From a phage: a stretch of 64,000 nt of DNA. The notes beneath the pieces were generated by a model. The model searched no databases and had not been told where the DNA came from. It saw nothing but the letters and a program-made list of their open reading frames with translations. Positions 26,094 to 38,127 of this stretch are shown here, in pieces (the stretch's first letter is position 1; each line of letters begins with the position of its first letter). The stretch lies in NCBI GenBank assembly GCA_014685065.1, contig GCA_014685065.1_4092.2. One strand, 5' to 3'. Made by a program: the position numbers and the translations under genes.

Positions 26094-26207
26094 TTAAACA
26101 CAAGTAGACAGGGGAAGCTCCTAGTGAACAACCTTTATGTACAGGCGAATTGTTAAAATTCAGCCTGGACAAATGCGATCACTAGGATTCTCCCCAGGCT
26201 AAACCCC

Positions 26208-26300
26208 GTAATCATAGGTAGTCATAAGTAATCATATATAAACATTTAAGTAATCATTTATAATCACTGTAGTGATCAGTAGTGATCAGTAGTGAGTACT
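26208..26300. repeat. cluster of GTAATCA(T) motifs plus tandem AGTGATCAGT x2 and AGTGAGTACT
   Basis: read directly in non-coding DNA. Confidence 0.6.
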
Positions 26301-26426
26301 AGAGTACAGGAATGTTCACGTTTAATCAAGAACGTAGCAGTACTGATATGCCACTAAGTAGGCAGAGGAAGTCTGCCGTACTTTGTAGTTTCCAAGCTCC
26401 TTTTCCATTTTGCAAATTACATCAAA

Positions 26427-26456
26427 TGTAATCAAAAGTAATCAAAAGTAATCACG
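26427..26456. repeat. tandem 10-bp repeat GTAATCAAAA x2 + GTAATCACGC
   Basis: read directly. Confidence 0.65.
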
Positions 26457-27141
26457 CAATGATTAGTACTGAATTATTACTTTCACCTTAATTTCAATTA
26501 CCCCTTTACCCTTCGGGGTAAAATTCAATTACCCCTTGAGGCTCCAGCAAAAAGTTGGTTAGTACTCCATCCTAAATCTCGATCCTAAAAATTTTGGAGT
26601 ACCTATGAAATAAAAGTTGGATCTTCGAAAGTTGAAATTTACGTTGGGACATATAGGATTTGTGGGATATAATGAGTTTTGTAGCGATACAGATTATACG
26701 ATTTCAGTACTGAATAATGAAAGAAAGCTATTGACATTATGATTCAGTACTGTATAATGTTCTACATAGAGAGATGAGTTGCTGCGAACAATTCATTTAC
26801 TCTACCTCCTGTCGTGAGACAGTACAGAAAAGATAGTTCCTCCTGTGGTGGTACATCTTTTTGAACCTCATATGAAAATCGTAATAACAGTACTGATATT
26901 AACAGAATGGTGTCAGTACTGATTTTAATCTAAAGCATTATGCCACCAGCTTGTGCTGGTGGATTCCCTCTAACAGTATTCAGTACTACATGATAGTCTT
27001 CATCCTCCTACAGTAACAGTGAGGGCTATTGTGGCAGTACTGAATACTCCCTTTCAAAAGATAGATCTATGGTATAGTACTGACGGATTTTGGGCGTAGT
27101 AACCCTAGGTTGAATTTAGACGTAGAGATGTCTAGACCTCC

Positions 27142-27298
27142 AGATGGCTGGAAGTAAAGATGGCTATCCCTCTAGGCGGCTGGATGGCTAGATTTCTAGA
27201 TGGCTGTACTGCTAGACGTTTGGACGGCTAAACGGCTAGATGGTTACACGTCTGGATGTATAGACGGCTAAATCAAAATTTTTATTTTATTTTTTCCA
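27142..27298. repeat. iteron-like array (about 9 copies of RGAYGGCT, 27142-27269) followed by AT tract (27271-27298); candidate origin or packaging signal
   Basis: copies at 27142, 27158, 27182, 27198, 27222, 27231, 27238, 27262 plus degenerate ones. Confidence 0.45.
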
Positions 27299-27951
27299 AT
27301 AGTTCCCCTACCGCGTGGGGATGGTTTCCCCGCAGTATCTGGAGTTAGATTTTTCTGAATCTGGAATCATTATCCCCGTTTTCGCCTGGTATGTCAACCG
27401 TCTGGATGAATAATTTTAAAAAATAATCTAGTACTGAATTTTGGGCGTAACTATGCACCCGGTGGGCTTGAGTCTTTCTCGACTTGATGAAACTATTATA
27501 CAGTACTGAAAAAATAAAGCAATACCCTAAACGCAAAAAGTTTTAATTAATTTGCTTGCCATCCTGGGGCGTACTATGGTACTATATTTCAGTACTGAGA
27601 AAGTGCTATGACCTGCTAAGGTGCGGGAGTGTATCCTTTTTAAATTTACTGAATTTTGGGCGTAATTCCGCACCCCCAGGGGTATCCGCTTTCTCGCGTC
27701 TATGTAGTAATTATACGCTTTTTCGGTGCTGAGTCAATAGCTAAAAACAAAATAATTGAAAATAATTTAACGCGTTTAAACGGCCCGTAAAGCCCTGGTT
27801 AGCTGGTGGCGGTGCAAATGTATAGCTTAGGTGTATTAATGCGTTAGAAAGCGGCTGAGGCCGTTTTATGGTGTATAGTACTGATTCAGTACTGAAAGAT
27901 AGTTCCCCTATATAGAAAGAAAACTATTTTAAAAGTATTTGTAGAAAGTAC

Positions 27952-28010
27952 TTGCAAAGTATTGGGAAAGGTGTAGAATGTTTTACATCGAGACGGGGGA
28001 TACGCTCCCG
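27952..28010 (+). promoter_or_regulatory. early promoter cassette: TTGCAA-N16-TAGAAT, TACATCG start region, leader hairpin CGGGGGATACGCTCCCG
   Basis: read directly. Confidence 0.55.
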
Positions 28011-28036
28011 ACTCACTTTTAAAAGAGATTAAAACG

Positions 28037-28399
28037 ATGGCGACTCAAATCAATACTATCATGCTTAACCTGGTTTCTTTCCGTGAAGAGATGAAAGATC
28101 TTCCCGCTGAGACTGTACGGATTCACATTGCAGCTTATCGGGAATTGATTGCAATGCTGCCGCTTAAGCGTGAACAGTACGCCGCTACTGCAATGCTGGA
28201 CGCAATGATACATAAGATGATCCAGACTGATTTAACGATGGCTTATCAGTACATGGGCGAAATGTTTGCAGTGTATAGCAAGCCAGTACCAGGAATGGAA
28301 AGTACAGAAGTATTGCACGGCTTAAACTTAAAACAAGATGCATGGGATAATATGCCTCGTTTCCTGGTATGGGCTGACAGCGGCAAGATTTACGAATAA
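28037..28399 (+). CDS. hypothetical protein
   Basis: ORF track; promoter cassette upstream. Confidence 0.6.
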   Translation: MATQINTIMLNLVSFREEMKDLPAETVRIHIAAYRELIAMLPLKREQYAATAMLDAMIHKMIQTDLTMAYQYMGEMFAVYSKPVPGMESTEVLHGLNLKQDAWDNMPRFLVWADSGKIYE

Positions 28400-28413
28400 G
28401 TTTAATAAAGTAC

Positions 28414-28473
28414 TTGCAAACTAAGTTTAAAAGCGTATAATGTTTTACATCAGGTGGGGAATAGTTCCCCACT
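28414..28473 (+). promoter_or_regulatory. early promoter cassette (TTGCAA 28414, TATAAT 28436) + 5' hairpin GTGGGGAATAGTTCCCCAC
   Basis: read directly. Confidence 0.6.
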
Positions 28474-28492
28474 ATATAAGAGGATTAAAAAA

Positions 28493-28732
28493 ATGGCTAA
28501 ATCAAAAATGTTCTTAGGTCACAAAAACAAAACTCAATGGAATGTAAGCCTTTGGATTAATAACGACGAATCATTATACCGGTTGGCCCAGGACTTTATT
28601 GCCGCTAACACTAATCGTAATGATGCGGCCCGTCATATGATGCTATTTTTAGAACAGACTGGACAAGATAAAACACCGGACGGCTTTAAGTATAGCACTA
28701 CTGCGATCCGTGCGGCGATGGTTGGAATGTAA
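28493..28732 (+). CDS. hypothetical protein
   Basis: ATG at 28493 after SD AGAGGA downstream of hairpin. Confidence 0.55.
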   Translation: MAKSKMFLGHKNKTQWNVSLWINNDESLYRLAQDFIAANTNRNDAARHMMLFLEQTGQDKTPDGFKYSTTAIRAAMVGM

Positions 28733-28814
28733 GAGAATAGATTAAAAGTACTATTGCACGGTGATAGTACTTTATAATAGATTTCTTTTATACAACAACG
28801 ATAGGGGTAACAGC

Positions 28815-29081
28815 ATGAATATTATATACTTTGCAACGCGTGAACTTGCTCGGATTGCCGCACGCCAGGACGGGGCGACGTTTAAAGATATGGGCGTACA
28901 ATCTGAACGTGGTAAACGTTGGGCCGTAGTAAAGCAAAGTACAGCCCGATCAATTCAGTACTGGCTATCTGCTTTAAAGCGTCCTGATAGTGTATCGCGT
29001 CGCGTGGTAGAAATAAAGCACGACCGCAAGGGCAACCGCGTTACTGTGTACAGTACTAAAAAGATTGCAGTACTTGAATAA
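28815..29081 (+). CDS. hypothetical protein, paralog of 40786..41181
   Basis: shared FATRE.AR..AR..G.TFKDMG..RWAV and HDRKGNRVTVYS. Confidence 0.55.
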   Translation: MNIIYFATRELARIAARQDGATFKDMGVQSERGKRWAVVKQSTARSIQYWLSALKRPDSVSRRVVEIKHDRKGNRVTVYSTKKIAVLE

Positions 29082-29203
29082 AAGTACTTGACAGTTATCC
29101 GGCTTAGTGAGATAATACTTACAAGCCGGACACAAGGCGATAGCCCATAGGGTGCGGGAGTGTATCTATAGGAAAGTACTAAAAACTATTTTCAAAAAAG
29201 TAC

Positions 29204-29349
29204 TTGCAAACTATGTTTAAAGGCGTATAATGTTTTACATCAGGACGGGGAATGAAATAAGTAACTCCCTGTTAAGTAGTCCAGGAGTAAGACTTACGAA
29301 AAACTCCCCTGATAAAATAGTTTGACAAAGATTTATAAAAGCGTATAAT
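29204..29349 (+). promoter_or_regulatory. duplicated long leader module with two tandem promoters (TTGCAA 29204/TATAAT 29226; TTGACA 29322/TATAAT 29344) flanking a conserved ~80-nt segment
   Basis: near-identical copy at 39531-39700. Confidence 0.5.
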
Positions 29350-29381
29350 ACTTACATCAACTAATGAATGAGGGTTACAAA

Positions 29382-29993
29382 ATGAAAACTATCACTACTA
29401 CTACTTTTGTTATGGCTTTTTCTGAACTGAACGCAGAACAACAAACGGCGGCTATCGAACTGGTTCGGGATCGGGAACGTGCAAGTGAGGATAATTTCTT
29501 TGCTGAGTCAGTACTGGAATACTATAAAGAAACAGTACTGCCAGAATACGGCATAGATGAAGCTGAATTGCAATACAGTGGTTTTTGGTCGCAAGGTGAC
29601 GGTGCATCAATCAGTACTGACCACGTTGACGCTGAGAAGTTTTTACGCAAGGTTAAGGCGTTAACTAAGTATCGCACTATCCGTCACCTGTTGAACGAAG
29701 ATGATTTAGAAATGAGTGTAGAACGTTCCCAATCGCGTTATGCACACGAAAACACGGTAGGCGGTTGCGTTGATACTCGCTACACTGATTTAACTGTAAA
29801 ACAGGCTGCATTAGCTGAGGATCTGGAAAACTTACTGACTGATACTATCCGAGAATTATCTTGTAAGCTGTACCGTGATTTAGAAAATGCTTATGAAGAC
29901 CAGTTTACTACTGAAAACATTGTAGCACTGATTGAGGGTAACGAATATCAATTTAATGTTATCGATGGTGTAGTAGAATCTATCGCATATTAA
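29382..29993 (+). CDS. hypothetical protein (203 aa)
   Basis: ATG at 29382 after SD GAGGG. Confidence 0.6.
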   Translation: MKTITTTTFVMAFSELNAEQQTAAIELVRDRERASEDNFFAESVLEYYKETVLPEYGIDEAELQYSGFWSQGDGASISTDHVDAEKFLRKVKALTKYRTIRHLLNEDDLEMSVERSQSRYAHENTVGGCVDTRYTDLTVKQAALAEDLENLLTDTIRELSCKLYRDLENAYEDQFTTENIVALIEGNEYQFNVIDGVVESIAY

Positions 29994-30010
29994 TTCAGTA
30001 CTGAATCACT

Positions 30011-30030
30011 GGCGGGGAATGGTTCCCGCC
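30011..30030 (+). promoter_or_regulatory. 5'-leader hairpin GGCGGGGAATGGTTCCCGCC
   Basis: hairpin-family member; no clean -10 found upstream. Confidence 0.4.
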
Positions 30031-30051
30031 TATATCCCAGGAGTAAGAGAA

Positions 30052-30288
30052 ATGATCGAACAAATCAAAACTACAACGCCAAACGTAACGGGTACAGTAT
30101 CACACTTCATTGGTGACGATTCGCGGGGCGTTCCTTATTGTGCAGTACATGTAAACCAAAATGGCGACTACTGGCTAACGGTTTACGGTTCTTATTCTTT
30201 CGGGCGTAGTGCACACCAAAAGATCCTGGATAAAGTACAGCCAACGGGTAAAAATATCACCGCTGAGATGTTTTATAAAAAGCACTAA
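30052..30288 (+). CDS. hypothetical protein
   Basis: ATG at 30052 after SD AGGAG. Confidence 0.55.
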   Translation: MIEQIKTTTPNVTGTVSHFIGDDSRGVPYCAVHVNQNGDYWLTVYGSYSFGRSAHQKILDKVQPTGKNITAEMFYKKH

Positions 30289-30295
30289 AAAGTAC

Positions 30296-30354
30296 TTGCA
30301 AAGTAATTAGATTAACGTATAATACTTTATATCGAGAGCGGGAATAGTTCCCGC
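30296..30354 (+). promoter_or_regulatory. early promoter cassette + hairpin GCGGGAATAGTTCCCGC
   Basis: TTGCAA 30296, TATAAT 30318. Confidence 0.6.
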
Positions 30355-30373
30355 CTTTAATGAGGATTATCTA

Positions 30374-30658
30374 ATGAGCAAAGTAATTAATAGTAAAGTA
30401 CTAACTAAAACTTTATCTATAACTGAGTGCACCGATGGTTTTTGGCTGTACGATGAAACGCGTGGCATGAATTTAGCTATGCAGGAGAAAACTGCTGATG
30501 CGGCATATCTTAAAGCACTGGAATACTACCAGAAGCGTTTAAAGGAAGTAGAAAACGATTATAATAACCTGAAAGCGAAAGTAGATCATTTTGTCGGTCA
30601 ATTCGTTGACGATGACGAGGACGGGCACTACTGCGACCGTTGCGGATCTTACAATTGA
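30374..30658 (+). CDS. hypothetical protein
   Basis: ORF track; SD GAGGA. Confidence 0.6.
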   Translation: MSKVINSKVLTKTLSITECTDGFWLYDETRGMNLAMQEKTADAAYLKALEYYQKRLKEVENDYNNLKAKVDHFVGQFVDDDEDGHYCDRCGSYN

Positions 30659-30675
30659 GTACTGAGGATTATCTA

Positions 30676-30879
30676 ATGAGTGATTTAATTGAACGTATCA
30701 AAGAGCTTGAAGAAAAAGAATTGCAGTTGATCGGGTTACGGAATAAAGTATTCCATGATTTAGGTGGCTTCATTAATGCCTGGGATAGTGGCGATCCTGA
30801 TGCGTTACCTGCTAACCGCCAGGCGATGATCAATGATGTGCGTGGTGTCTTTGATTATGTTTTAAAGCAATTAAATTAA
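30676..30879 (+). CDS. hypothetical protein
   Basis: same GAGGATTATCTAATG start context as 30374. Confidence 0.55.
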   Translation: MSDLIERIKELEEKELQLIGLRNKVFHDLGGFINAWDSGDPDALPANRQAMINDVRGVFDYVLKQLN

Positions 30880-30887
30880 AAAAGTAC

Positions 30888-30947
30888 TTGCAATTAGTTT
30901 TTAGTACTGTATAATAGTTTACATCAAGGGGGGAAATGGTTCTCCCC
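30888..30947 (+). promoter_or_regulatory. early promoter cassette + hairpin
   Basis: TTGCAA 30888, TATAAT 30910, GGGGGAAATGGTTCTCCCC. Confidence 0.6.
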
Positions 30948-30966
30948 ACTAATAAGGAGTTTTACA

Positions 30967-31188
30967 ATGGCTAATATCACTACTCTTTCCCAGCTTGAAG
31001 CACTGGTTAAATCTATGCGGGCACATGTTGACAGTATCGGCGTAGAAGATCCGGCTGTATGTTTTTGTGACGAAATAAATGATGATACGCTCGTCATTGC
31101 AGAAGTACAAGACGTTTCTAACTATTCATCGCGTTACACTTGCGGAGTATCAAAGAAAGGTGATTTCTGTTTATATCTTACTAAGTAA
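30967..31188 (+). CDS. hypothetical protein
   Basis: ORF track; SD AAGGAG. Confidence 0.6.
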   Translation: MANITTLSQLEALVKSMRAHVDSIGVEDPAVCFCDEINDDTLVIAEVQDVSNYSSRYTCGVSKKGDFCLYLTK

Positions 31189-31356
31189 TACAGAGGGGAT
31201 CAATTGATCCCCTTTATATTTTTTGTACTGAATCATTTAATAGACGGATCTATGCACCCTGTGGGTTAGTGACTATCTCGTCTTTATGTAAGTATTATGC
31301 CAGTACTGGATGCAGTTGTCAAGACTTTTTTTTCAAATACTTTTATATCAAAGTAC

Positions 31357-31384
31357 TTGATAATAGTTTTTAAATGCGTATAAT
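31357..31384 (+). promoter_or_regulatory. sigma70-like promoter TTGATA-N16-TATAAT
   Basis: read directly. Confidence 0.5.
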
Positions 31385-31434
31385 GTTTTACATCTAATCG
31401 GGAATACTCCCTAGTACTAACAAAGGATATACAA

Positions 31435-31734
31435 ATGAAAACTGCAATCATCGCCCTGGCTTTATCTGTTTCCTCTTTCGCTGTTAACGCTTCCGTTGAT
31501 GTACCGAAAGAAAAATTCATTCAGTGCACTGTTGCAATGACTAACGAGGAAACGGCTGAGATCGTTACCAAATCCCTGGAACTGGCCCCTGCAATGTTTG
31601 CTAATGGCCCGTACCATGAAGAAGATGATCAGGGTAGCACGACCATCTATTACGATGCAAAAAGTAAACGCGGTTCTGTCACTGTAATGGATACAGAGAA
31701 AGTTACATTCACTGGCGTAATTAATTGTTTATAA
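31435..31734 (+). CDS. secreted/periplasmic protein (N-terminal signal peptide)
   Basis: MKTAIIALALSVSSFAVNASVD signal-like N-terminus. Confidence 0.6.
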   Translation: MKTAIIALALSVSSFAVNASVDVPKEKFIQCTVAMTNEETAEIVTKSLELAPAMFANGPYHEEDDQGSTTIYYDAKSKRGSVTVMDTEKVTFTGVINCL

Positions 31735-31751
31735 TATAGTACTGAATCACT

Positions 31752-31779
31752 AGCCCACTATAAGCAGTGGGCTTTTTTG
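31752..31779 (+). terminator. intrinsic terminator AGCCCACT-N6-AGTGGGCT + T6
   Basis: read directly. Confidence 0.7.
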
Positions 31780-31832
31780 TTTTTGTAGTATTGTAGTACT
31801 GGTATACTTTGAAAATAGTTTTAAAAAAGTAG

Positions 31833-31860
31833 TTGACATTACCAGGGAAAAGCGTAGAAT
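31833..31860 (+). promoter_or_regulatory. sigma70-like promoter TTGACA-N16-TAGAAT with ~110-nt leader
   Basis: read directly. Confidence 0.5.
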
Positions 31861-31974
31861 GTATTACATCAAGACGGGGAACATTAAGTAGACCGCCAGT
31901 AAGTCGAATGAAAAACTGGACACGTCAATAAAACTTTGATAAACTAACTTAAACTTTAATTGAGGATTTATAAA

Positions 31975-32457
31975 ATGGCTAATGTAAAATCATTTCTGAA
32001 AGCACTGATTTCTAACGATACTGTTATTGCTGCTGAATTGCTGGCTGACCTGGATAATGATACCATGAAAGCAGTACGCAACAATTTTAACATTGCTTAC
32101 AGTGAAGCGAAAGAACTACAAGCCAAAAAGGTAGCAGAACTGGAAGAACAGAAAAAAGCCCGTGAAGCAGAACTGCAAGCAACAATAGAAAGTATTCAGG
32201 CGGCGGTGTCTGGTTTAGATCTGGAAGTGGTTATTGAAATGGCACATAAAGCCCTGGCGGTTAAGTACGGTGAAGATAAGCCGGAATCTAAGCCTAAAAA
32301 ATGGATTCAAGAACGTGTTACGGTTGTCCTTGATAACGGGGAAGAACATTTGATTCCTGTACGCGGTAACTGCATTGCGGTAGTACTAGATGCAATCAAA
32401 GAAAGCGGTATGACTCGCGAGGAATGGATCGAAGCTCACCGCAAAGTTGAAGCATAA
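31975..32457 (+). CDS. hypothetical protein (alanine/glutamate-rich, likely helical)
   Basis: ATG at 31975 after SD GAGGA. Confidence 0.6.
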   Translation: MANVKSFLKALISNDTVIAAELLADLDNDTMKAVRNNFNIAYSEAKELQAKKVAELEEQKKAREAELQATIESIQAAVSGLDLEVVIEMAHKALAVKYGEDKPESKPKKWIQERVTVVLDNGEEHLIPVRGNCIAVVLDAIKESGMTREEWIEAHRKVEA

Positions 32458-32478
32458 CAATTAAAGTACTGAATCACT

Positions 32479-32505
32479 AGCCCACTTATACAGTGGGCTT
32501 TTTTG
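32479..32505 (+). terminator. intrinsic terminator AGCCCACT-N6-AGTGGGCT + T-run
   Basis: read directly. Confidence 0.7.
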
Positions 32506-32657
32506 TGTCTATAGTATTCCATGCCGTCAGCACCTCATAGAATCGATTCTAACGCATTAAACTGATTATCTGATGCATCGCCCTAGCTGGTGGAGTTAAG
32601 GCCGTTAGAATGCGATTGAGAGTGTTAAAAGTATTTTACAAAAAGTAATAAAAAGTA

Positions 32658-32685
32658 CTTGCACGATTCAGAGATTAGCGTATAA
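32658..32685 (+). promoter_or_regulatory. sigma70-like promoter TTGCAC-N16-TATAAT
   Basis: read directly. Confidence 0.5.
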
Positions 32686-32731
32686 TGTTTTACATCAAGG
32701 CGAAACACCTTAACTAACTGAGGATATAAAG

Positions 32732-32884
32732 ATGAATACTTATGAACTGGATTGTTTCACTATGCAAGTAATGTTAGTATGCAGTAAAAAAGAATGGTCA
32801 TCAAAGGAATTTAAAGCAGTTATTGCATGTTCAAAAAAAGGTAAGTCTATTATTGAAACGGCAGCTATCGTAGATAGTCTTTAA
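32732..32884 (+). CDS. small hypothetical protein (50 aa)
   Basis: hand-translated; SD GAGGA. Confidence 0.4.
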   Translation: MNTYELDCFTMQVMLVCSKKEWSSKEFKAVIACSKKGKSIIETAAIVDSL

Positions 32885-32892
32885 AAAATAGT

Positions 32893-32921
32893 TTGACAAT
32901 AGTTTTAAGTACTGACATAAT
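32893..32921 (+). promoter_or_regulatory. sigma70-like promoter TTGACA-N17-CATAAT
   Basis: read directly. Confidence 0.5.
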
Positions 32922-32954
32922 ACATACATCAACTACTGAATAGGAATCAAAACA

Positions 32955-33182
32955 ATGGCTATCGTAATCACTCGCGTATCTGGTACTACTGGCAATTCTT
33001 CTACTGTTGCTGTAATTACTAATAAGAAAGGTGCGGAATTACATTTTGCAATGAATACCTGGGCGGTGAATGAGTTCGGTCAGTGGGCTAGTGTAGAATA
33101 CATTGAAACCTATCAAGTGCCAACCATTAGCTTAACGGATCTCGGCGTAGATCGTATCTTATGCCTGGATGAATTAAACTAA
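32955..33182 (+). CDS. hypothetical protein
   Basis: ORF track. Confidence 0.55.
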   Translation: MAIVITRVSGTTGNSSTVAVITNKKGAELHFAMNTWAVNEFGQWASVEYIETYQVPTISLTDLGVDRILCLDELN

Positions 33183-33189
33183 AAAGTAC

Positions 33190-33249
33190 TTGCAAAGTAA
33201 ATCGGATAAAGTATAATACATTACATCAAGGGGAGAAATGATTCTCCCC
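33190..33249 (+). promoter_or_regulatory. early promoter cassette + hairpin GGGGAGAAATGATTCTCCCC
   Basis: TTGCAA 33190, TATAAT 33212. Confidence 0.6.
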
Positions 33250-33267
33250 ACTAAGAGGAAACTAAAA

Positions 33268-33411
33268 ATGAAAACTTGTCAATGTGGTAAAAAATCTATC
33301 ACTGGTTTGAAACGGGGCGTTGCTCTTTGTCAGTATCACTATAACGCTCAAGTATGGGGTAAAGAGTGGGCCGACCAGGTGGAAGCAATAAAGAAAGCAA
33401 AAAGTAAGTAA
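33268..33411 (+). CDS. small Cys-rich protein (47 aa; CxCG..C..H zinc-ribbon-like)
   Basis: hand-translated MKTCQCGKK..ALCQYHY; SD AAGAGGAAA. Confidence 0.45.
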   Translation: MKTCQCGKKSITGLKRGVALCQYHYNAQVWGKEWADQVEAIKKAKSK

Positions 33412-33420
33412 AATTATTAT

Positions 33421-33459
33421 CACAGTACTATTGACATAGATTGATAGTACTGGCATAAT
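33421..33459 (+). promoter_or_regulatory. class II promoter: TTGACA-N17-CATAAT with AGTACTAT/ATAGTACT inverted repeat over -35 and spacer
   Basis: read directly. Confidence 0.55.
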
Positions 33460-33492
33460 AGATTTTATCAAGACAACTAAGAGGAAACAAAA

Positions 33493-33705
33493 ATGGCTAT
33501 CATTACAAAAATCAAAGTAAACAATTCACTGGTTAAACTGGAACAAGTGAAAGCGGGTTATAAAGTATCATGGTGCGGAATGTATCGGATGTTCGCAGAT
33601 ATTGACGATGCAATCAAATATTATACTGATACGGTTGCTAACTTTGTTCGTGCTGATGTAGTGATGGCAGTTGCACAACATAAAGCATCAAAGCAAAGTA
33701 AGTAA
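33493..33705 (+). CDS. hypothetical protein
   Basis: ORF track. Confidence 0.55.
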   Translation: MAIITKIKVNNSLVKLEQVKAGYKVSWCGMYRMFADIDDAIKYYTDTVANFVRADVVMAVAQHKASKQSK

Positions 33706-33710
33706 AATTA

Positions 33711-33753
33711 TTATCACAGTACTATTGACATAGTTTGATAGTACTGGCATAAT
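33711..33753 (+). promoter_or_regulatory. class II promoter with AGTACT inverted repeat (near-identical to 33421 copy)
   Basis: TTGACA 33725, CATAAT 33748. Confidence 0.55.
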
Positions 33754-33786
33754 AGATTTTATCAAGACAACTAAGAGGAAATTAAA

Positions 33787-34131
33787 ATGGCTAACATCAA
33801 CACTATCTCAGCACAAAATATCAACCTGTCTTCTGTTGAAGTTGTACATATTGCCGCTCGGCGTTGGTTCCAGGCTTCATATGGTAACACTTATTTCTCT
33901 TTAAGTGTAGACGTAGAAATTGATGGTAATTTTATTGAAGTAGTAAACGTGCCGTTCCAATATGGATACGGGGATCACTTTGACACTGTAGCAATGGAAG
34001 AATTTAGCAAGGTTATTAATATGGAAGATAAAGAGTTTTTACGCGGTTCTTATCTTTCCCGTTTTTGCCGTGACAATAATATCACTGTTTACAGTTCGGT
34101 AACTGATGTTAAACGCAAAAAAGATCTTTAA
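33787..34131 (+). CDS. hypothetical protein
   Basis: ORF track. Confidence 0.6.
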   Translation: MANINTISAQNINLSSVEVVHIAARRWFQASYGNTYFSLSVDVEIDGNFIEVVNVPFQYGYGDHFDTVAMEEFSKVINMEDKEFLRGSYLSRFCRDNNITVYSSVTDVKRKKDL

Positions 34132-34211
34132 TTAGCTTTACTTTATGCAGATACTTTGATATAGTGTCTGCATAGGGGAAAGAAATTAAATCAAATTAAG
34201 AGGATAGTAAA

Positions 34212-34481
34212 ATGAAAAATATCAGTACTTTAATCGATGCAGGTACTCATGTTCGTCGGTCAATGGTTGCAACCAGTACTACAAAACAAGTAGCAAGCGG
34301 TTATCTTGTATTTGTACACGAAGGAAAGCTATTGGAACGTTCAATCAATTTTGATGTTAAAAACAATTGCCGTTTTATTATTTTTAAGCGTGAACAATAT
34401 AAAATTGATTTGCCAGCAAAGCCCATTAGCGGGGCGTACAACGTGCAATCATTGTTTGAGCGTCAACCATACACCTATTAA
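34212..34481 (+). CDS. hypothetical protein
   Basis: ORF track; SD AAGAGGA. Confidence 0.55.
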   Translation: MKNISTLIDAGTHVRRSMVATSTTKQVASGYLVFVHEGKLLERSINFDVKNNCRFIIFKREQYKIDLPAKPISGAYNVQSLFERQPYTY

Positions 34482-34532
34482 TCAAAACATCGTTAGCGGT
34501 CGATTTAGGCCGCTTATATTGGGGATTATACC

Positions 34533-34703
34533 ATGAACGTTAATCAAGTACTGAATGAAGTTGAAAGCATCATTAAACCAATGAAACGTATTGATGCTGT
34601 TCCTACACCGGAAGAATGCCGCCTTTATGAGCGTTACAGTGTGGAACAAGCCCAGGAAATGGCCCGTATCCGTCCGGTTGCCAGTACTGATAAGGCGGCG
34701 TAA
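34533..34703 (+). CDS. small hypothetical protein (56 aa)
   Basis: hand-translated; SD-like GGGGA. Confidence 0.4.
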   Translation: MNVNQVLNEVESIIKPMKRIDAVPTPEECRLYERYSVEQAQEMARIRPVASTDKAA

Positions 34704-34704
34704 T

Positions 34705-34911
34705 ATGCTTACTGTACAGGATAAGATCGACATCTTAAAGGTTAATATGTATGTGATTGATGCAGATCCTGAAAAAGTATTTGCATACGATGATTCTAAT
34801 CGTAGTCCTTTTTATTGTAGTCATGTAGTTGGATACGTGCCGTTAGCGTATGTTATCGAAAGAGTGGTTGATTCAGCTTATAAACATTACTTAGAAAGTA
34901 CTTGCAATTAG
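34705..34911 (+). CDS. hypothetical protein
   Basis: ATG one nt after previous stop. Confidence 0.45.
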   Translation: MLTVQDKIDILKVNMYVIDADPEKVFAYDDSNRSPFYCSHVVGYVPLAYVIERVVDSAYKHYLESTCN

Positions 34912-34961
34912 TTTTCAGTACTGTATAATTGTTTACATAGAGGGGGGGAATGGTTCTCCCC
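34902..34961 (+). promoter_or_regulatory. early promoter cassette + hairpin
   Basis: TTGCAA 34902, TATAAT 34924, GGGGGGGAATGGTTCTCCCC. Confidence 0.6.
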
Positions 34962-34979
34962 GATACTAGGAGAAACAAA

Positions 34980-35132
34980 ATGAAACAATATAACGCTCGG
35001 TTTGATGTTACTATCGGTAACGGGAAAGGTCAGTACTCTTTCAGTACTCGTAAAAGTTATACAGAAAACTTCCTGCGTAATTGTGCACTGACCGCCGCAC
35101 AAATTAAACATTACTTTCAGGCTAAAAAATGA
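34980..35132 (+). CDS. small hypothetical protein (50 aa)
   Basis: ATG after SD AGGAG. Confidence 0.45.
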   Translation: MKQYNARFDVTIGNGKGQYSFSTRKSYTENFLRNCALTAAQIKHYFQAKK

Positions 35133-35218
35133 AATCATTAGCTTACTATAGTTCGGCCCTGGTCGGTGCAGTACTGGCGGCATTGTTAGTAACCTATCTA
35201 TTCTTTATGGTGATTTAA
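35129..35218 (+). CDS. micro membrane peptide (29 aa)
   Basis: ATGA overlap; single hydrophobic helix; speculative. Confidence 0.3.
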   Translation: MKSLAYYSSALVGAVLAALLVTYLFFMVI

Positions 35219-35356
35219 ATGAATCCAAATAATATTATCTATCCTAACGCTAAAACGAAAGCAGATAAGGTAAACGCAAAAAAAGCGAAAGTAAAGCAGT
35301 ACATCAAGCAAGGCATGACACGCAAAGCGGCATTGCTTAAAGCTAAAAATAAATGA
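35219..35356 (+). CDS. small basic protein (45 aa)
   Basis: hand-translated; Lys-rich. Confidence 0.3.
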   Translation: MNPNNIIYPNAKTKADKVNAKKAKVKQYIKQGMTRKAALLKAKNK

Positions 35357-35362
35357 AAAAAG

Positions 35363-35394
35363 TGGTTGACTTCGGTCAGCCATTTTGCTATTAT
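35363..35394 (+). terminator. terminator/promoter dual element, copy 4 (variant)
   Basis: TGGTTGACTTCGGTCAGCCA + TTTTG + TATTAT. Confidence 0.55.
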
Positions 35395-35498
35395 ATATTC
35401 ATTGAGAGATAGCTCACTAGCCCACAGGGTGCAGGAATGTATCTATTGTATAATGATTGAGTACTGAAAACTATTTTAAAGTATTTGATAAAAAGTAC

Positions 35499-35557
35499 TT
35501 GCAAACTATCTCAATAAGCGTATAATGTTTTACATCGCAAGGGGAAACGGTTTCCCC
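35499..35557 (+). promoter_or_regulatory. early promoter cassette + hairpin GGGGAAACGGTTTCCCC
   Basis: TTGCAA 35499, TATAAT 35521. Confidence 0.6.
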
Positions 35558-35577
35558 TGGTAATAAGGAAACGAATC

Positions 35578-35919
35578 ATGACTATTGCAATTGCTCAATC
35601 TAACTTTGAAAACGAAATCATCGCTCAGGCACTGCGTTTAAATGATGGTCGGGCCGAAATCAATTACGGTTTCAATAGTGGTGGATGTGAAAAATATCAG
35701 TACTTTGTAACGGCTGATGGCTGTGTCCTGGGTATCAATACAGTTATTGTAAACATTCAGAAAATTAATTTCAATGATCCAGACGATAGCCAGTTTTACA
35801 TCACGGGCGTAGACGTGAACTACGAAGATGATTCCTTAACTGATGATTACACTGGCGAGAAGTTAGAAAGTGCATACGGTGAGGATGATTATCAGTCCGG
35901 TCCAGAAGATTTTGAATAA
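35578..35919 (+). CDS. hypothetical acidic protein
   Basis: ORF track. Confidence 0.6.
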   Translation: MTIAIAQSNFENEIIAQALRLNDGRAEINYGFNSGGCEKYQYFVTADGCVLGINTVIVNIQKINFNDPDDSQFYITGVDVNYEDDSLTDDYTGEKLESAYGEDDYQSGPEDFE

Positions 35920-35933
35920 TATTAAAAAATAGT

Positions 35934-35992
35934 TTGACAATAGTTTCCAGTACTGTATAATTAATTACATCAAGGGGAGAATAGTTCTCCCC
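35934..35992 (+). promoter_or_regulatory. early promoter cassette + hairpin GGGGAGAATAGTTCTCCCC
   Basis: TTGACA 35934, TATAAT 35956. Confidence 0.65.
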
Positions 35993-36014
35993 ACTAACAG
36001 AGAGAGAAAACAAA

Positions 36015-36197
36015 ATGGCTGAATTAATCGCTCGGAATACAATTGCAGGCGTTGAAGATGTAACATTATCATATGATTCAGATAAACAAGTTTACGTCAT
36101 TCGTTATGGTCTGATTGGTGTTAACGTTGATTCAATTGACGAAGCCTTTGAAAAATACTTTGAATTTATCAACCTGGCTTATGATGATTATCGTTAA
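36015..36197 (+). CDS. hypothetical protein
   Basis: ORF track. Confidence 0.5.
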   Translation: MAELIARNTIAGVEDVTLSYDSDKQVYVIRYGLIGVNVDSIDEAFEKYFEFINLAYDDYR

Positions 36198-36205
36198 AAA
36201 ATAGT

Positions 36206-36264
36206 TTGACAATAGTTTTAAGTACTGTATAATTAATTACATCAAGGGGAGAATAGTTCTCCCC
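36206..36264 (+). promoter_or_regulatory. early promoter cassette + hairpin (near-identical copy of 35934)
   Basis: TTGACA 36206, TATAAT 36228. Confidence 0.65.
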
Positions 36265-36281
36265 ACTAAGAGGAAAACAAA

Positions 36282-36500
36282 ATGGCTAATATCCGCACTG
36301 TACTGAAAAATGCAAAACAAGTTTTATTTTCTGACGATGAATATTTTAATCGCAATATCAAAGGCGTTCGGAACATTGAGGATGTAAAGGAATTATTTGG
36401 AATCAAAGGTAACGTATATCGTAAAGGATTGCACGGTAATCATTTTGAATATAAGTTAGCTGATAGTGATTATAACTTTACACTGACTATCATTAACTAA
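36282..36500 (+). CDS. hypothetical protein
   Basis: ORF track. Confidence 0.55.
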   Translation: MANIRTVLKNAKQVLFSDDEYFNRNIKGVRNIEDVKELFGIKGNVYRKGLHGNHFEYKLADSDYNFTLTIIN

Positions 36501-36510
36501 AAATATTATC

Positions 36511-36548
36511 ACAGTACTATTGACAACTGCCGATAGTACTGGCATAAT
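36511..36548 (+). promoter_or_regulatory. class II promoter with AGTACT inverted repeat
   Basis: TTGACA 36520, CATAAT 36543. Confidence 0.55.
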
Positions 36549-36592
36549 AACTTTTATCAACAGTAGTTAACTTAACCTAAGAGAGAAACATC

Positions 36593-36736
36593 ATGACAGC
36601 ATTAGATTCATTCATCGACGCAGTACTGGCAAAAACTGGCGAGGATCTGACCGCAGAACAATACGCGATGATCGAGCAATGCCAGCAAAACGGTAAATCG
36701 GTGAAAGATACTGTTAAGATTATCCGCAAGATGTAA
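36593..36736 (+). CDS. small hypothetical protein (47 aa)
   Basis: hand-translated; SD AAGAGAGAAA. Confidence 0.4.
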   Translation: MTALDSFIDAVLAKTGEDLTAEQYAMIEQCQQNGKSVKDTVKIIRKM

Positions 36737-36841
36737 GAATATAGCCCACTGGTTAACGCTGGTGGGCTTTAATCATTTACCCTATACAATGCCAGTACTA
36801 AACCGTTTATCTCGTTAGAATGCGTTACAGGACGTTTAACA

Positions 36842-37039
36842 ATGATTAGCATGAAATCAGTACAAAAACAAATTGATACATTATCAAAAATTAAACGTAA
36901 ACAGTACTCCTTAGAATATACAATCAATGGTAACTATCATCTAATGAAAGAAAATAATTTTATAGTCATTGATGAATCATTGCAAATCATTAGTATAGTA
37001 CTGAAAGCATTAATCAATGACAGAAAAAAGTTAAAATAA
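36842..37039 (+). CDS. hypothetical protein
   Basis: ORF track; weak SD. Confidence 0.4.
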   Translation: MISMKSVQKQIDTLSKIKRKQYSLEYTINGNYHLMKENNFIVIDESLQIISIVLKALINDRKKLK

Positions 37040-37370
37040 TCTATTGACAATATTATCCAGTACTGGCATAATACTTACATCAAGACGAGAACGTCACTAA
37101 CCCATAGGGTGCACAAATGTAACTGTATAATATTGATCAAAAAATGATCTGATCAATACTTGATCAATTTGCGTAAAGTAGTATAATTCTATGCAGTTGG
37201 TTAGACGAAAGGTTATGATTAGTAGTGGAAGTGTATAAAAATTTTCATGGTGTGGTGATCCGCACATATGGGGATGAATATGTCGTGTCGTATGGATTGG
37301 AAAAAGTAAGAACAAGTAATATACTTGTCGCGTTACAGTACTATAGTAATTTTATAATGAGGTTAAAATA

Positions 37371-37628
37371 ATGGCTGTAGGATTCACGAAAGATGGGGCC
37401 GAGCAAGACGAGATTAACGCAGTGATTCAGGCCGCTGTTAACCACGCTAGAACGCAAATTAACGCACAAATAGAATCACTGATACATTGCCTCGACTGCG
37501 GCGATAAAATCCCTGAGAATCGCCGCCAGGCAGTTAAGGGGTGTAAGTACTGCATCACTTGCCAGGCTGATCATGATAGCATATTCAAACGCAATCCCCG
37601 TAATTGTTGGCATAGATCTATGAGATAA
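37371..37628 (+). CDS. DksA/TraR-family C4 zinc-finger protein
   Basis: CLDCGDKIPENRRQAVKGCKYCITCQ matches CxxCG..IP..RR.A....CxxCQ. Confidence 0.7.
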   Translation: MAVGFTKDGAEQDEINAVIQAAVNHARTQINAQIESLIHCLDCGDKIPENRRQAVKGCKYCITCQADHDSIFKRNPRNCWHRSMR

Positions 37629-37634
37629 AAAGTA

Positions 37635-37662
37635 TTGACAGTGCTGTTAGTTAGTGTATAAT
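37635..37662 (+). promoter_or_regulatory. sigma70-like promoter TTGACA-N16-TATAAT
   Basis: read directly. Confidence 0.5.
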
Positions 37663-37691
37663 ATTTTATATCTTAACTGAGGATTGAAATC

Positions 37692-38048
37692 ATGGGTATA
37701 CAACATATCACGCGTACTACAGACAATGGTGAGATCACTGGCTATCAAGTACAAGGCAAAGTAGCACAATTGCAGTACTGGTTTGTTAAACGTGGCATTG
37801 TTGCACCAGATCTTGATTATAATCGTGTAGCGTTTATTGATTCTCTTTATGTTGATCCCGATAATCGCGGTAACGGTGAAGGTACTGAATTAATGAATGC
37901 CTTTATTGATGCCGCCGATGATTCAGATTGTATCATCTTAGAATGCGATACGGGAGAAGATAACGCATTTAATCTTAAAGAATGGTATGAAAGTTTTGGT
38001 TTTGAAGTGCTGATGGACTGCGAATATCCTATAATGATTTTATCCTAG
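37692..38048 (+). CDS. possible GNAT-type acetyltransferase
   Basis: motif-A-like YVDPDNRGNGEGTELMNAF (R-x-x-G-x-G); weak. Confidence 0.4.
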   Translation: MGIQHITRTTDNGEITGYQVQGKVAQLQYWFVKRGIVAPDLDYNRVAFIDSLYVDPDNRGNGEGTELMNAFIDAADDSDCIILECDTGEDNAFNLKEWYESFGFEVLMDCEYPIMILS

Positions 38049-38051
38049 TAC

Positions 38052-38110
38052 TTGCAATTAGTTTTAAGTACTGTATAATAGTTTACATGAAGGGGAGAAT
38101 AGTTCTCCCC
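38052..38110 (+). promoter_or_regulatory. early promoter cassette + hairpin
   Basis: TTGCAA 38052, TATAAT 38074, GGGGAGAATAGTTCTCCCC. Confidence 0.65.
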
Positions 38111-38127
38111 ACTACAAGGAAAGACAA

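What the first reader, a model, noticed from the sequence alone, without database searches (positions are those of the whole stretch)
26100..28030. A 1.9-kb non-coding hub with iterons, an AT tract and several direct-repeat families: candidate origin or packaging site
No convincing ORF. The region contains GTAATCA(T) repeated at least 6 times (26208-26456), tandem AGTGATCAGT, CAATTACCCCTT x2, and at 27142-27269 about nine copies of RGAYGGCT at ~8-24 bp spacing immediately followed by a ~28-bp pure A/T tract. This is the classic iteron plus DNA-unwinding-element layout of replication origins. Several GC-rich hairpins (e.g. CCACCAGCTTGTGCTGGTGG near 26943) are also present.
Basis: partly seen in the sequence, partly recalled or inferred. 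Interest (0 to 1): 0.6.

Follow-up and report, generated by a model that had tools for sequence, protein, structure and literature searches.

The report
Jumbo-phage genome end with MetJ-box array
This gene-free stretch is the conserved leader of the 20-kb terminal repeat of a 121Q-like jumbo coliphage: it contains the exact genome end, and its supposed replication "iterons" are 19 head-to-tail copies of the binding site of the host methionine repressor MetJ.

Summary
The repeats are real and non-random, and the region is non-coding. The window is an Asteriusvirus, 96% identical to phage 121Q.

Eight independent relatives' records begin or end at the base homologous to window 26357. [quoted passage not shown] So the hub straddles the physical genome end: 26100-26356 is unique DNA, and 26357-28030 is the first 1.67 kb of a ~20.1-kb direct terminal repeat (26357-46451). 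"Packaging site" is therefore partly right.

"Iteron plus DUE origin" is not supported:
- The RGAYGGCT copies are 19 in-phase tandem 8-mers (27118-27269). They fit the E. coli MetJ met box (AGACGTCT) as well as genuine metB and metF operators do, and pass a published met-box rule.
- There are no DnaA boxes and no initiator gene nearby.
- The A/T tract is one of eight such tracts in the window.

Eneladusvirus and Mimasvirus relatives carry the same array at the same distance from the end. Alcyoneusvirus and fENko-Kae01 carry Fur-box-like arrays there instead.

The flagged hairpin is an inverted pair of Chi sites, and the repeat holds nine co-oriented Chi sites. AGTACT (17 copies) is part of the phage's early promoters.

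MetJ binding and its purpose are inferred, not shown.

The parts
26105..26201 (.). Inverted repeat (23-nt arms, 78% complementary) just after the last small ORF (ends 26093), on the unique side of the hub
   Evidence: I4. The right arm is conserved in the genus.
26208..26266 (+). GTAATCA-type repeats at 10-12-bp spacing, 91-149 bp outside the cut site. Candidate terminase recognition repeats (inferred).
   Evidence: The first two copies plus GTAGTCA are conserved in six relatives; the third is variable.
26269..26295 (+). Tandem GTAGTGATCA x2.7. Replaced by other sequence in G17, PBECO4 and SD-2_S15, so probably dispensable.
26339..26382 (.). Cut-site core AGTACTGATATGCCACTA|AGTAGGCAGAGGAAGTCTGCCGTACT. 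The physical genome end and terminal-repeat boundary lies between 26356 and 26357. Includes hairpin GGCAGAGGAAGTCTGCC (26361-26377) and GAAGTC 11 nt inside the end.
   Evidence: Literature.
26421..26454 (+). ATCAAAAGTA x3.4 (GTAATCA at exact 10-bp spacing), 71-97 bp inside the end. Copy number is 2 or 3 among relatives.
26490..26551 (+). 31-nt direct repeat x2 (AATTYCAATTACCCCTT) with the small hairpin TACCCTTCGGGGTA between the copies
26561..26603 (.). AGTACTCCATCCTAAATCTCGATCCTAAAAATTTTGGAGTACC, an inverted repeat conserved in other genera (XbC2 nt 74-115, fENko-Kae01 nt 86-126)
   Evidence: conservation 0.90-0.99
26731..26758 (+). Perfect sigma-70 consensus promoter TTGACA-16-TATAAT, 375 bp from the end, pointing inward, with no ORF after it. 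A strong promoter sits at the equivalent position in four other genera.
26766..26930 (+). Highly structured orphan transcript region with several hairpins, two followed by U-runs. Candidate small RNA (inferred).
   Evidence: -65.9 kcal/mol, z = -5.4. Genus conservation 0.88-0.96. No Rfam match.
26943..26962 (.). Inverted pair of Chi sites: CCACCAGC at 26943 and GCTGGTGG at 26955.
   Evidence: The same palindrome is in fENko-Kae01 at nt 484/496.
27118..27269 (.). 19 tandem in-phase 8-bp met-box-like units (consensus AGAYGKCT). Predicted binding array for host MetJ.
27269..27345 (+). A/T tract followed by TTCCAATAGTTCCCCTACCGCG...GCAGTATC. A T-rich tract plus TTTTCCATTAG..CCC is conserved in all five genera next to the array.
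27369..27397 (-). Promoter-like site TTGACA-17-GATAAT firing toward the array and the genome end. Conserved in fENko-Kae01, poorly conserved within the genus.
27432..27501 (-). First copy of a 70-nt unit: -10 TATAAT, then GAGAAAG, then CCCnnnGGG-TGC, then ..GCCCAAAAT, read on the - strand
   Evidence: (D3, D10)
27556..27737 (.). Dyad-symmetric module about 180 bp long. Two convergent promoter-like sites, 27556-27585 (+) and 27737-27710 (-), have mutually complementary downstream arms. It lies 1.13-1.36 kb from the end and is conserved in five genera. It contains the second 70-nt unit (27647-27716).
27802..27809 (+). Chi site (GCTGGTGG), the second of nine co-oriented Chi sites in the terminal repeat
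27945..28036 (+). Promoter of the first terminal-repeat gene (AAAGTACTTGCAA-N16-TAGAAT), then a 5' hairpin and ribosome-binding site. The gene starts at 28037.
26357..46451 (+). Direct terminal repeat as mapped from G17, about 20.1 kb here. It holds about 50 small + strand genes with their own promoters, and its right boundary is 46451|46452.

Best explanation
The hub is the conserved untranslated leader of the ~20-kb direct terminal repeat of an Asteriusvirus, a 121Q/PBECO4-like jumbo coliphage.

Shown:
- Terminase cuts replicated DNA between 26356 and 26357. Bases 26100-26356 are the unique flank that precedes the right-hand repeat copy. Bases 26357-28030 are the first 1.67 kb of virion DNA at one end, and are present again inside the other end.
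- The region encodes no protein and is packed with cis elements aimed at host machinery. These are a consensus sigma-70 promoter with no gene behind it, Chi sites, and 19 contiguous 8-bp units indistinguishable by sequence from MetJ met boxes.

Inferred:
- Host MetJ with its corepressor SAM coats the array cooperatively. This forms a long nucleoprotein block between convergent hub promoters.
- The block couples events at the genome end (read-through transcription, and perhaps DNA entry or end protection) to the host's SAM status.
- Once the genome has replicated, hundreds of array copies soak up MetJ and de-repress host methionine and SAM synthesis.
- Sister genera use Fur boxes at the same spot, so the general principle would be docking of an abundant metabolite-sensing host repressor.
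- The 10-bp-phased GTAATCA repeats on both sides of the cut, plus the conserved cut-site core, are the more likely terminase recognition elements.
For: Genome end:
- G17 has an exact 20,668-bp terminal repeat with no mismatches between the copies. Its boundary maps to window 26356|26357.
- Seven further records from different laboratories and countries begin or end at the same base: CRJP21, vB_Ec-M-J, BF17, fEgEco12, E9.1, ELP-22 and WPEC3.
[quoted passage not shown] Sharanji has a 20,668-bp repeat by PhageTerm, and G17's repeat was seen by coverage.
- The end lies 11 nt 5' of RAAGTC in four genera. Both repeat boundaries read C[A/G]CTA|AG[T/G] from outside to inside.

Conserved layout:
- The order and distance from the end are the same in Alcyoneusvirus, fENko-Kae01, Eneladusvirus and Mimasvirus.

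MetJ array:
- The 19 in-phase 8-mers match AGACGTCT at 110 of 152 positions. Background for 19 in-phase 8-mers is 38 +/- 5.
- Genuine K-12 operators score 75% (metJ/B) and 69% (metF).
- The published met-box matrix and rule find only the two true operators in a 7-kb K-12 locus. In the 64-kb window they find three adjacent in-phase sites in the array, of 25.7, 25.9 and 55.8 bits, plus one weak 2-box site at 61212. Only 5% of shuffled hubs give any site, and the best reaches 20.5 bits.
- 92 boxes from five phages reproduce the MetJ base frequencies at 7 of 8 positions, including the secondary preferences.
- The 8-bp register is kept over 15-25 units in three genera, and indels of 8 and 16 bp occur.
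- No MetJ homologue exists in any phage record. No ribbon-helix-helix family was found among 75 nearby ORFs.
- Fur-like boxes occupy the same position in sister genera: 7 observed against 0.18 expected.
Against: - No binding or functional data exist. MetJ occupancy is inferred from sequence only.
- Position 6 of the box is G in 47% of phage boxes, against 10% in bacterial met boxes. This should weaken individual boxes and could mean a different, phage-encoded binder.
- The array does not overlap an obvious promoter, unlike bacterial operators.
- XbC2 carries the array but is recorded as a Xanthomonas phage, and Xanthomonadales lack MetJ.
- Only 64 kb of a ~350-kb genome was examined for a phage-encoded binder.
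- Which genome end enters the cell first is unknown.
- The - strand promoter next to the array is poorly conserved within the genus.
Confidence: 0.6

Rival explanations
1. Iteron-type replication origin. A phage initiator binds the RGAYGGCT repeats and melts the adjacent A/T tract.
For: - A repeat array lies directly next to an A/T-rich tract, and the pairing is conserved across genera.
- Cumulative GC skew reaches its window minimum at about 26 kb, although gene orientation switches about 4 kb earlier.
- Strong promoters without ORFs could prime replication, as at T4 or T7 origins (knowledge-based analogy).
- Chi orientation is what rightward forks leaving the hub would favour.
Against: - The units are contiguous 8-mers. 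This is the MetJ operator architecture, not spaced 17-22-bp iterons.
- Sister genera replace the array with Fur-like boxes while keeping the surroundings. That is odd for an initiator site.
- No DnaA boxes or IHF consensus sites are present.
- No initiator, Rep or helicase family appears among 75 neighbouring ORFs.
- The A/T tract is one of eight of its kind in the window.
- The negative GC skew at 22-26 kb coincides with a family of ~60-aa ORFs. Their unusual composition may explain it (inference, not tested).
Confidence: 0.1
2. The 8-bp array is the packaging recognition site. The small terminase subunit oligomerises on it and directs the cut about 760 bp away.
For: - The array occurs once per genome unit, at a fixed distance from the end in three genera: 648-808 nt in Eneladusvirus and Mimasvirus, 762-913 nt here.
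- Arrays of short repeats near cut sites are typical of pac and cos regions (knowledge).
Against: - The cut site is conserved across genera, but the array is swapped for Fur-like boxes in two lineages. A co-evolving terminase site is possible but would not be expected to mimic two host operators.
- The match to the MetJ matrix at 7 of 8 positions would be coincidental.
- The 10-bp-phased GTAATCA repeats flank the cut far more closely.
Confidence: 0.12
3. The array binds a phage-encoded ribbon-helix-helix or similar repressor, not host MetJ. It would act as an operator or roadblock for early-transcription shut-off, and its likeness to met boxes would reflect a shared recognition style (TAGA steps).
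For: - Position 6 is G in half the boxes in all three genera, a systematic departure from bacterial met boxes.
- XbC2's recorded host lacks MetJ.
- Most phage genes here have no known function.
Against: - No MetJ homologue is found in any phage record.
- No MetJ, Arc, CopG or other ribbon-helix-helix family is detected among 75 ORFs around the hub.
- The secondary base preferences copy those of MetJ sites.
- Sister genera carry sites that match another host repressor, Fur, at up to 16 of 19 positions.
Confidence: 0.15
4. The hub is a T5-like injection-stop or entry-control region. Host proteins bound to the repeat-rich untranslated part of the terminal repeat pause or ratchet DNA transfer.
For: - T5's Repeat Region 3 is a 1.2-kb untranslated, repeat-rich block mostly inside the terminal repeat. 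It overruns 270 bp into unique DNA, has nine DRD repeats and clustered host DnaA boxes, and is more conserved than nearby genes.
- The hub has the same placement (260 bp of overrun) and the same character, and it carries host-factor sites.
Against: - Two-step DNA transfer has not been reported for these phages in the papers read.
- The role of DnaA boxes in T5 is itself only a proposal.
- There is no sequence similarity to T5, and no DnaA boxes are present.
Confidence: 0.1

Closest known systems
Direct terminal repeats of Asteriusvirus and related RaK2-like jumbo phages (G17, fEgEco12, Sharanji, vB_Ec-M-J, Muenster, fENko-Kae01)
   Same: Same genome end to the base, and the same ~20-kb repeat.
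   Different: The papers read report only the size of the repeat. Term searches of the fEgEco12 and Sharanji papers found no mention of promoters, non-coding regions or an origin.
Phage T5 left terminal repeat, Repeat Region 3 (injection stop signal region)
   Same: A long untranslated, repeat-dense block at the inner edge of a long terminal repeat. It overruns the boundary by about 260-270 bp, holds about nine short direct repeats and clustered host DNA-binding-protein sites, and is highly conserved among relatives.
   Different: No sequence similarity. T5 has DnaA boxes in inverted repeats, whereas this hub has none and has tandem met boxes. Two-step transfer is not known for these phages.
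E. coli MetJ operators (tandem met boxes, consensus AGACGTCT)
   Same: The 8-bp unit, strict head-to-tail register, base preferences at 7 of 8 positions, frequent CTAG junctions, and per-box scores equal to metB and metF operators.
   Different: 19 boxes (15-25 in relatives), against the 4 boxes scored in each of the two K-12 operators examined. Published descriptions say 'two or more'. The array is not placed over a recognisable promoter, has G at position 6 in half the boxes, and sits on a virulent phage that has no met genes in the window.
Transcription-factor decoy or titration arrays (e.g. multicopy Fur-box titration, engineered decoy sites)
   Same: Many tandem sites for one abundant repressor on a replicon that reaches high copy number (papers listed).
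   Different: Those are engineered or chromosomal examples. A natural phage-borne array for MetJ was not found in the library searched.
Phage T7 left end (terminal repeat followed by host-RNA-polymerase promoters A1-A3)
   Same: A strong host-type promoter a few hundred bp from a fixed end, pointing inward, ahead of the early genes. The T7 side of this comparison is from general knowledge.
   Different: The T7 repeat is 160 bp rather than 20 kb. It is not known which end of this phage enters first.

Membership tests
Long direct-terminal-repeat boundary (fixed-end packaging) | An identical sequence at both ends of virion DNA, with a defined boundary | tested here: met
   The G17 repeat copies of 20,668 bp are identical. 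The boundary maps to 26356|26357 and 46451|46452.
Long direct-terminal-repeat boundary (fixed-end packaging) | A reproducible terminus in independent isolates, with experimental confirmation | tested here: met
   Eight records share the terminal base. PhageTerm plus digests were done for fEgEco12. This was not measured on the window's own phage.
Iteron-type replication origin | Spaced 17-22-bp direct repeats bound by a cognate initiator encoded nearby | tested here: not met
   The units are contiguous 8-mers. No initiator or Rep family is found among 75 neighbouring ORFs.
Iteron-type replication origin | Host initiation-factor sites (DnaA boxes, IHF) and a distinctive AT-rich unwinding element | tested here: not met
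   No DnaA boxes or IHF consensus sites. The A/T tract is one of eight similar tracts in the window.
Iteron-type replication origin | Replication initiates there | not testable with these tools
   Needs marker-frequency mapping or 2-D gel mapping.
MetJ operator | Two or more adjacent 8-bp met boxes in register matching AGACGTCT | tested here: met
   19 in-phase boxes, 16 of them at or above the published per-box threshold. Three sites pass the published total-score rule.
MetJ operator | Base preferences like those of known sites | tested here: inconclusive
   7 of 8 positions agree quantitatively. Position 6 is G in 47% of boxes against 10% in known sites.
MetJ operator | Overlaps and represses a promoter | tested here: not met
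   No promoter-like site lies within the array. The nearest are 26731-58 (+) and 27397-69 (-).
MetJ operator | Bound by MetJ with SAM | not testable with these tools
   Needs gel-shift, footprinting or ChIP experiments.
T5-type injection stop region | An untranslated repeat block at the inner edge of the terminal repeat, conserved among relatives | tested here: met
T5-type injection stop region | DnaA-box pairs in inverted repeats, and two-step DNA transfer | tested here: not met
   No DnaA boxes are present. Two-step transfer cannot be tested here.
Known RNA family | A match to an Rfam covariance model | tested here: not met
   No match at gathering thresholds in the whole window, and none at E <= 1 in the hub. 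No tRNA or tmRNA was found.

The most novel reading that the evidence does not exclude
RaK2-like jumbo phages carry, at a fixed position about 0.7-0.9 kb from one genome end, a swappable super-array of binding sites for an abundant metabolite-sensing host repressor. The repressor is MetJ (with SAM) in Asteriusvirus, Eneladusvirus and Mimasvirus, and Fur (with iron) in Alcyoneusvirus and the fENko-Kae01 group. The array would let the phage read the host's metabolic state at the incoming DNA end. After replication it would titrate the repressor and de-repress host methionine/SAM synthesis or iron uptake. That would make it a natural viral transcription-factor sponge.
Probability: 0.35. Interest if true: 0.8.

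Novelty: new variant of a known kind. Interest (0 to 1): 0.62.

Why it matters
If host MetJ really coats this array, and Fur coats its counterpart in sister genera, these jumbo phages would be the first natural case I could find of a virus using a long tandem array of host-repressor sites. The array could work as a sensor of host SAM or iron status, or as a sponge that rewires host metabolism.

The idea is directly testable with gel shifts, ChIP, metJ or fur deletion hosts, and array-deleted phages.

The work also fixes the genome end for 121Q-type records that were deposited without terminal repeats. It reassigns a 'terminator' hairpin as a Chi pair. It shows that the terminal repeat is loaded with co-oriented Chi sites, which bears on how a 350-kb linear genome survives RecBCD.

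For annotation, it warns against calling 'iteron plus AT tract' an origin.

Tried and rejected
- Rfam at gathering thresholds on the whole window, and at E <= 1 on the hub, found nothing. A tRNA/tmRNA scan also found nothing.
- DnaA-box, IHF and Fur consensus scans of the hub gave no hits.
- tblastn of E. coli MetJ against 50,697 phage records returned only host-DNA contaminants.
- A Pfam scan of 75 small ORFs at 22.2-48 kb found no MetJ, Arc, ribbon-helix-helix, Rep or initiator family.
- RNAalifold on the cross-genus 200-nt module pairs the two arms of a DNA dyad with each other, with a covariation term of +0.58. That gives no support for a conserved RNA, so I treat it as a DNA-level palindrome of convergent promoters.
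- The idea that Muenster's annotated 50-aa ORF over that module marks a conserved small protein was dropped without a direct test. The hub's indels are mostly not multiples of three, and the only equivalent ORF in the window starts with TTG.
- A scan with the conserved 16-mer GCTTTCTCGCGTCTAT returned 9 loci. Two (L030, L032) have the same met-box arrays about 400 nt upstream. Two (L026, L029) are extra copies of the unit elsewhere in the repeat. Four (L025, L027, L031, L033) are chance hits in coding DNA. One (L028, the 121Q contig) holds too little flank to tell.
- Literature searches for MetJ or met boxes in phages returned nothing.
- Whole-genome GC skew was not computed, because the fetch cap would not cover a 350-kb genome.
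Full report
**Identity of the window.** The hub (26100-28030) is 96% identical to Escherichia phage 121Q and 85-92% identical to about 40 other Asteriusvirus jumbo phages of E. coli and Salmonella. In 121Q, G17, PBECO4 and vB_Ec-M-J the interval carries no annotated gene. It lies between a run of ~60-aa ORFs that ends at 26093 and a long series of small + strand genes that starts at 28037.

**Check of the observation.**
GTAATCA occurs 6 times against 0.17 expected, and RGAYGGCT 6 times against 0.08.
- The tandem AGTGATCAGT, the duplicated CAATTACCCCTT and the hairpin at 26943 are also there.
- The A/T tract is 27 nt with one C. It is one of eight such tracts in the window.
- The region is non-coding. 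No ORF exceeds 63 aa, and indels among relatives are mostly not multiples of three.
- The commonest repeat was missed. AGTACT occurs 17 times in the hub and 248 times in the window. That is roughly eleven times my own estimate of about 22 from base composition (one search gives the counts).

**The genome end is inside the hub.**
- Records about 20 kb longer than 121Q contain the hub twice.
- G17 (370,817 bp) has two identical 20,668-bp terminal copies. Their boundaries map to window 26356|26357 and 46451|46452.
- Seven further records from different laboratories begin or end at the base equal to window 26357, AGTAGGCAGAGGAAGTCTGCC. They are CRJP21, vB_Ec-M-J (repeat annotated), BF17, fEgEco12, E9.1, ELP-22 and WPEC3.
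- The fEgEco12 paper confirmed its ends by PhageTerm and restriction digests. Sharanji and G17 have matching reports.
- So 26100-26356 is unique DNA, and 26357-28030 is the first 1.67 kb of the terminal repeat.
- Around the cut, AGTACTGATATGCCACTA|AGTAGGCAGAGGAAGTCTGCCGTACT is conserved. Sequence 20-90 bp further out is variable.
- Read from outside to inside, both repeat boundaries share C[A/G]CTA|AG[T/G]. In four genera the end lies 11 nt before RAAGTC.
- GTAATCA repeats with 10-12-bp phasing flank the cut on both sides. I regard them as the likeliest terminase recognition elements. This is inference.

**A layout conserved across genera.** Records of Muenster (Alcyoneusvirus) and fENko-Kae01 start at PhageTerm-determined ends. 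Records of Serratia phage BF, Erwinia phage pEa_SNUABM_12 (Eneladusvirus) and XbC2 (Mimasvirus) start at what appear to be homologous ends. All show the same order of elements:
1. The genome end.
2. A CCTAAATCTCGA...TTTTGGAGTACC element.
3. A strong inward sigma-70 promoter with no ORF behind it. Here it is a perfect TTGACA-16-TATAAT at 26731-26758.
4. An AGTACT-rich stretch.
5. A repeat array 0.65-0.9 kb from the end.
6. A T-rich tract plus TTTTCCATTAG..CCC.
7. A ~180-bp dyad of two convergent promoter-like sites 1.13-1.36 kb from the end.

**The 'iterons' are met boxes.**
- Laid out in 8-mers from 27118, the array is 19 contiguous units: AGACGTAG AGATGTCT AGACCTCC AGATGGCT ... AGACGGCT.
- They match the MetJ met-box consensus AGACGTCT at 110 of 152 positions. 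Background for 19 in-phase 8-mers in this window is 38 +/- 5.
- I fetched the true operators from E. coli K-12. metJ/B reads AGAAGTTT AGATGTCC AGATGTAT TGACGTCC (75%), and metF reads TTACATCT GGACGTCT AAACGGAT AGATGTGC (69%).
- I applied the published half-box information matrix and decision rule (PMC3228920). The K-12 locus yields exactly its two operators.
- The 64-kb window yields three adjacent in-phase sites in the array, of 4, 4 and 7 boxes and 25.7, 25.9 and 55.8 bits. It also yields one weak two-box site elsewhere. Only 5% of shuffled hubs give any site, and the best reaches 20.5 bits.
- Arrays in the same register occur in 121Q (19 boxes), G17 (16), EJP2 (25), pEa_SNUABM_12 (17), BF (16), XbC2 (15) and two uncultivated 371-kb contigs.
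- The base frequencies of 92 phage boxes reproduce the MetJ matrix at seven of eight positions, including minor preferences. The exception is position 6, where G equals T.
[quoted passage not shown] MetJ is universal in Enterobacteriales (PMC4239095).
- No phage record encodes a MetJ homologue. No ribbon-helix-helix family is detectable among 75 nearby ORFs.

**Sister genera use a different host operator.**
- At the array position, Muenster, RaK2, phiKp_21 and fENko-Kae01 have no met boxes.
- Instead they have clusters of sequences matching the Fur box at 14-16 of 19 positions, for example GAGAATGATAATGATTCTC. Seven are observed against 0.18 expected.
- A further Fur-like box sits in the loop of the conserved dyad in Muenster, RaK2, fENko-Kae01 and BF.
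- Two different corepressor-dependent host repressors at one conserved position argue that what matters is docking an abundant host repressor, not a phage initiator or terminase.

**Other elements.**
- Chi occurs 11 times on the + strand of the window against 0.2 expected. Nine of these lie inside the terminal repeat, all co-oriented, and one lies on the - strand at 26943. G17 shows the same pattern.
- By the known polarity of Chi recognition, the nine + strand sites face RecBCD entering from the 46451 end. The - strand site faces entry from the 26357 end, 587 bp in. This is inference.
- AGTACT is built into the early promoters. It appears as AAAGTACTTGCAA at the -35 element and as AGTACTGnCATAAT at the -10 element. 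It also precedes terminators.
- The region downstream of the orphan promoter folds unusually well, at -65.9 kcal/mol with z = -5.4. It has no Rfam match.
- RNAalifold on the cross-genus dyad pairs its two arms with each other without covariation support. I therefore read it as a DNA palindrome of convergent promoters.

**Interpretation.**
- Shown: the hub is the untranslated leader of the terminal repeat and contains the terminase cut.
- Strongly indicated by sequence: a 19-box MetJ-type array and Chi sites.
- Inferred: MetJ with SAM coats the array, forming a block between convergent hub promoters. At high genome copy number the array titrates MetJ.
- The origin reading lacks its defining features, but sequence alone cannot exclude it.
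- The closest described analogue is T5's Repeat Region 3. It is a 1.2-kb untranslated, repeat-dense block that overruns the repeat boundary by 270 bp and carries clustered host DnaA boxes.

**Caveats.**
- There are no binding data.
- Position 6 of the box is atypical.
- The array does not overlap a promoter.
- XbC2's recorded host, Xanthomonas, lacks MetJ.
- Only 64 kb of the genome was searched for a phage-encoded binder.

**Novelty.**
- The ~20-kb repeat is already published.
- I did not find the anatomy of its leader, the met-box or Fur-box arrays, or the Chi loading in the papers read or the library searches.

Noticed in passing
whole window; e.g. 27947, 28409, 29199, 30291, 30883-30903, 33424-33446: AGTACT occurs 248 times in 64 kb, about eleven times my own composition estimate of about 22. 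It is dense at 22-46 kb and absent from 48-50 and 54-60 kb. It is embedded in early promoters (AAAGTACTTGCAA at -35, AGTACTGnCATAAT at -10) and precedes terminators (TTCAGTACTGAATCACT + hairpin). The same palindrome litters the hubs of four other genera.
   Followed up: partly
window 26357-46451 (Chi at 26955, 27802, 32586, 36758, 38221, 39486, 41870, 43278, 45076; - strand 26943): The terminal repeat holds nine co-oriented Chi sites (GCTGGTGG) where about 0.06 is expected. G17 has the same pattern. Outside the repeat there are four more (767, 13095 on +; 15370, 15628 on -).
   Followed up: partly
L012 (Muenster) 780-910, 1073-1097, 1306, 2422-2446; L015 (fENko-Kae01) 690-800, 1040, 2342; L013 (RaK2) 2136-2255: Fur-box-like arrays (up to 16-17 of 19 matches to GATAATGATAATCATTATC) occupy the position that the met-box array has in Asteriusvirus. 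Single Fur-like boxes also sit between early genes and in the loop of the conserved dyad, including Serratia phage BF nt 1034.
   Followed up: partly
window 46300-46540: The other terminal-repeat boundary lies at 46451|46452. It is preceded by the hairpin AATCCCTT...AAGGGATT (about 46377-46408) and followed by a TTGACT...TATAAAAT promoter-like site and the first gene of a new series of ~70-aa ORFs (46519 onward). AGTACT density drops sharply beyond it.
   Followed up: partly
window 22233-26093: About 20 tandem + strand ORFs of roughly 60 aa lie here. They have negative GC skew and strongly positive AT skew, unlike the other + strand genes. As a result the cumulative GC-skew minimum falls at the hub rather than at the gene-orientation switch near 22.2 kb.
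   Followed up: no
window 29083-29175: An orphan promoter unit lies between two repeat genes: AAAGTACTTGACA-N17-GATAAT, then about 50 nt ending GCCCATAGGGTGCGGGAGTGTATC. It shares its 3' part with the hub unit at 27597-27636. Related uncultivated phages have further copies after repeat genes (L026, L029).
   Followed up: partly
window 33402-33760: A near-identical ~294-bp tandem duplication of a promoter region (AGTACTATTGACATAG..GATAGTACTGGCATAAT) is seen at 33424/33446 and 33718/33740.
   Followed up: no
window 28037-48042 (ORF set): Among the small ORFs in and around the terminal repeat, single members hit the DksA/TraR zinc finger, a ParE-like toxin domain, GNAT acetyltransferase, protein kinase and SRAP families. 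I did not map which ORF gave which hit.
   Followed up: no
L018 (XbC2) 648-767: XbC2 is recorded as a Xanthomonas vesicatoria phage but is a Mimasvirus with a 15-box met-box array. Xanthomonadales lack MetJ, so either the host label or the MetJ reading needs checking.
   Followed up: no
window 61212: This is the only other site in the window that passes the published met-box rule (2 boxes, 14.3 bits). It is probably chance.
   Followed up: no
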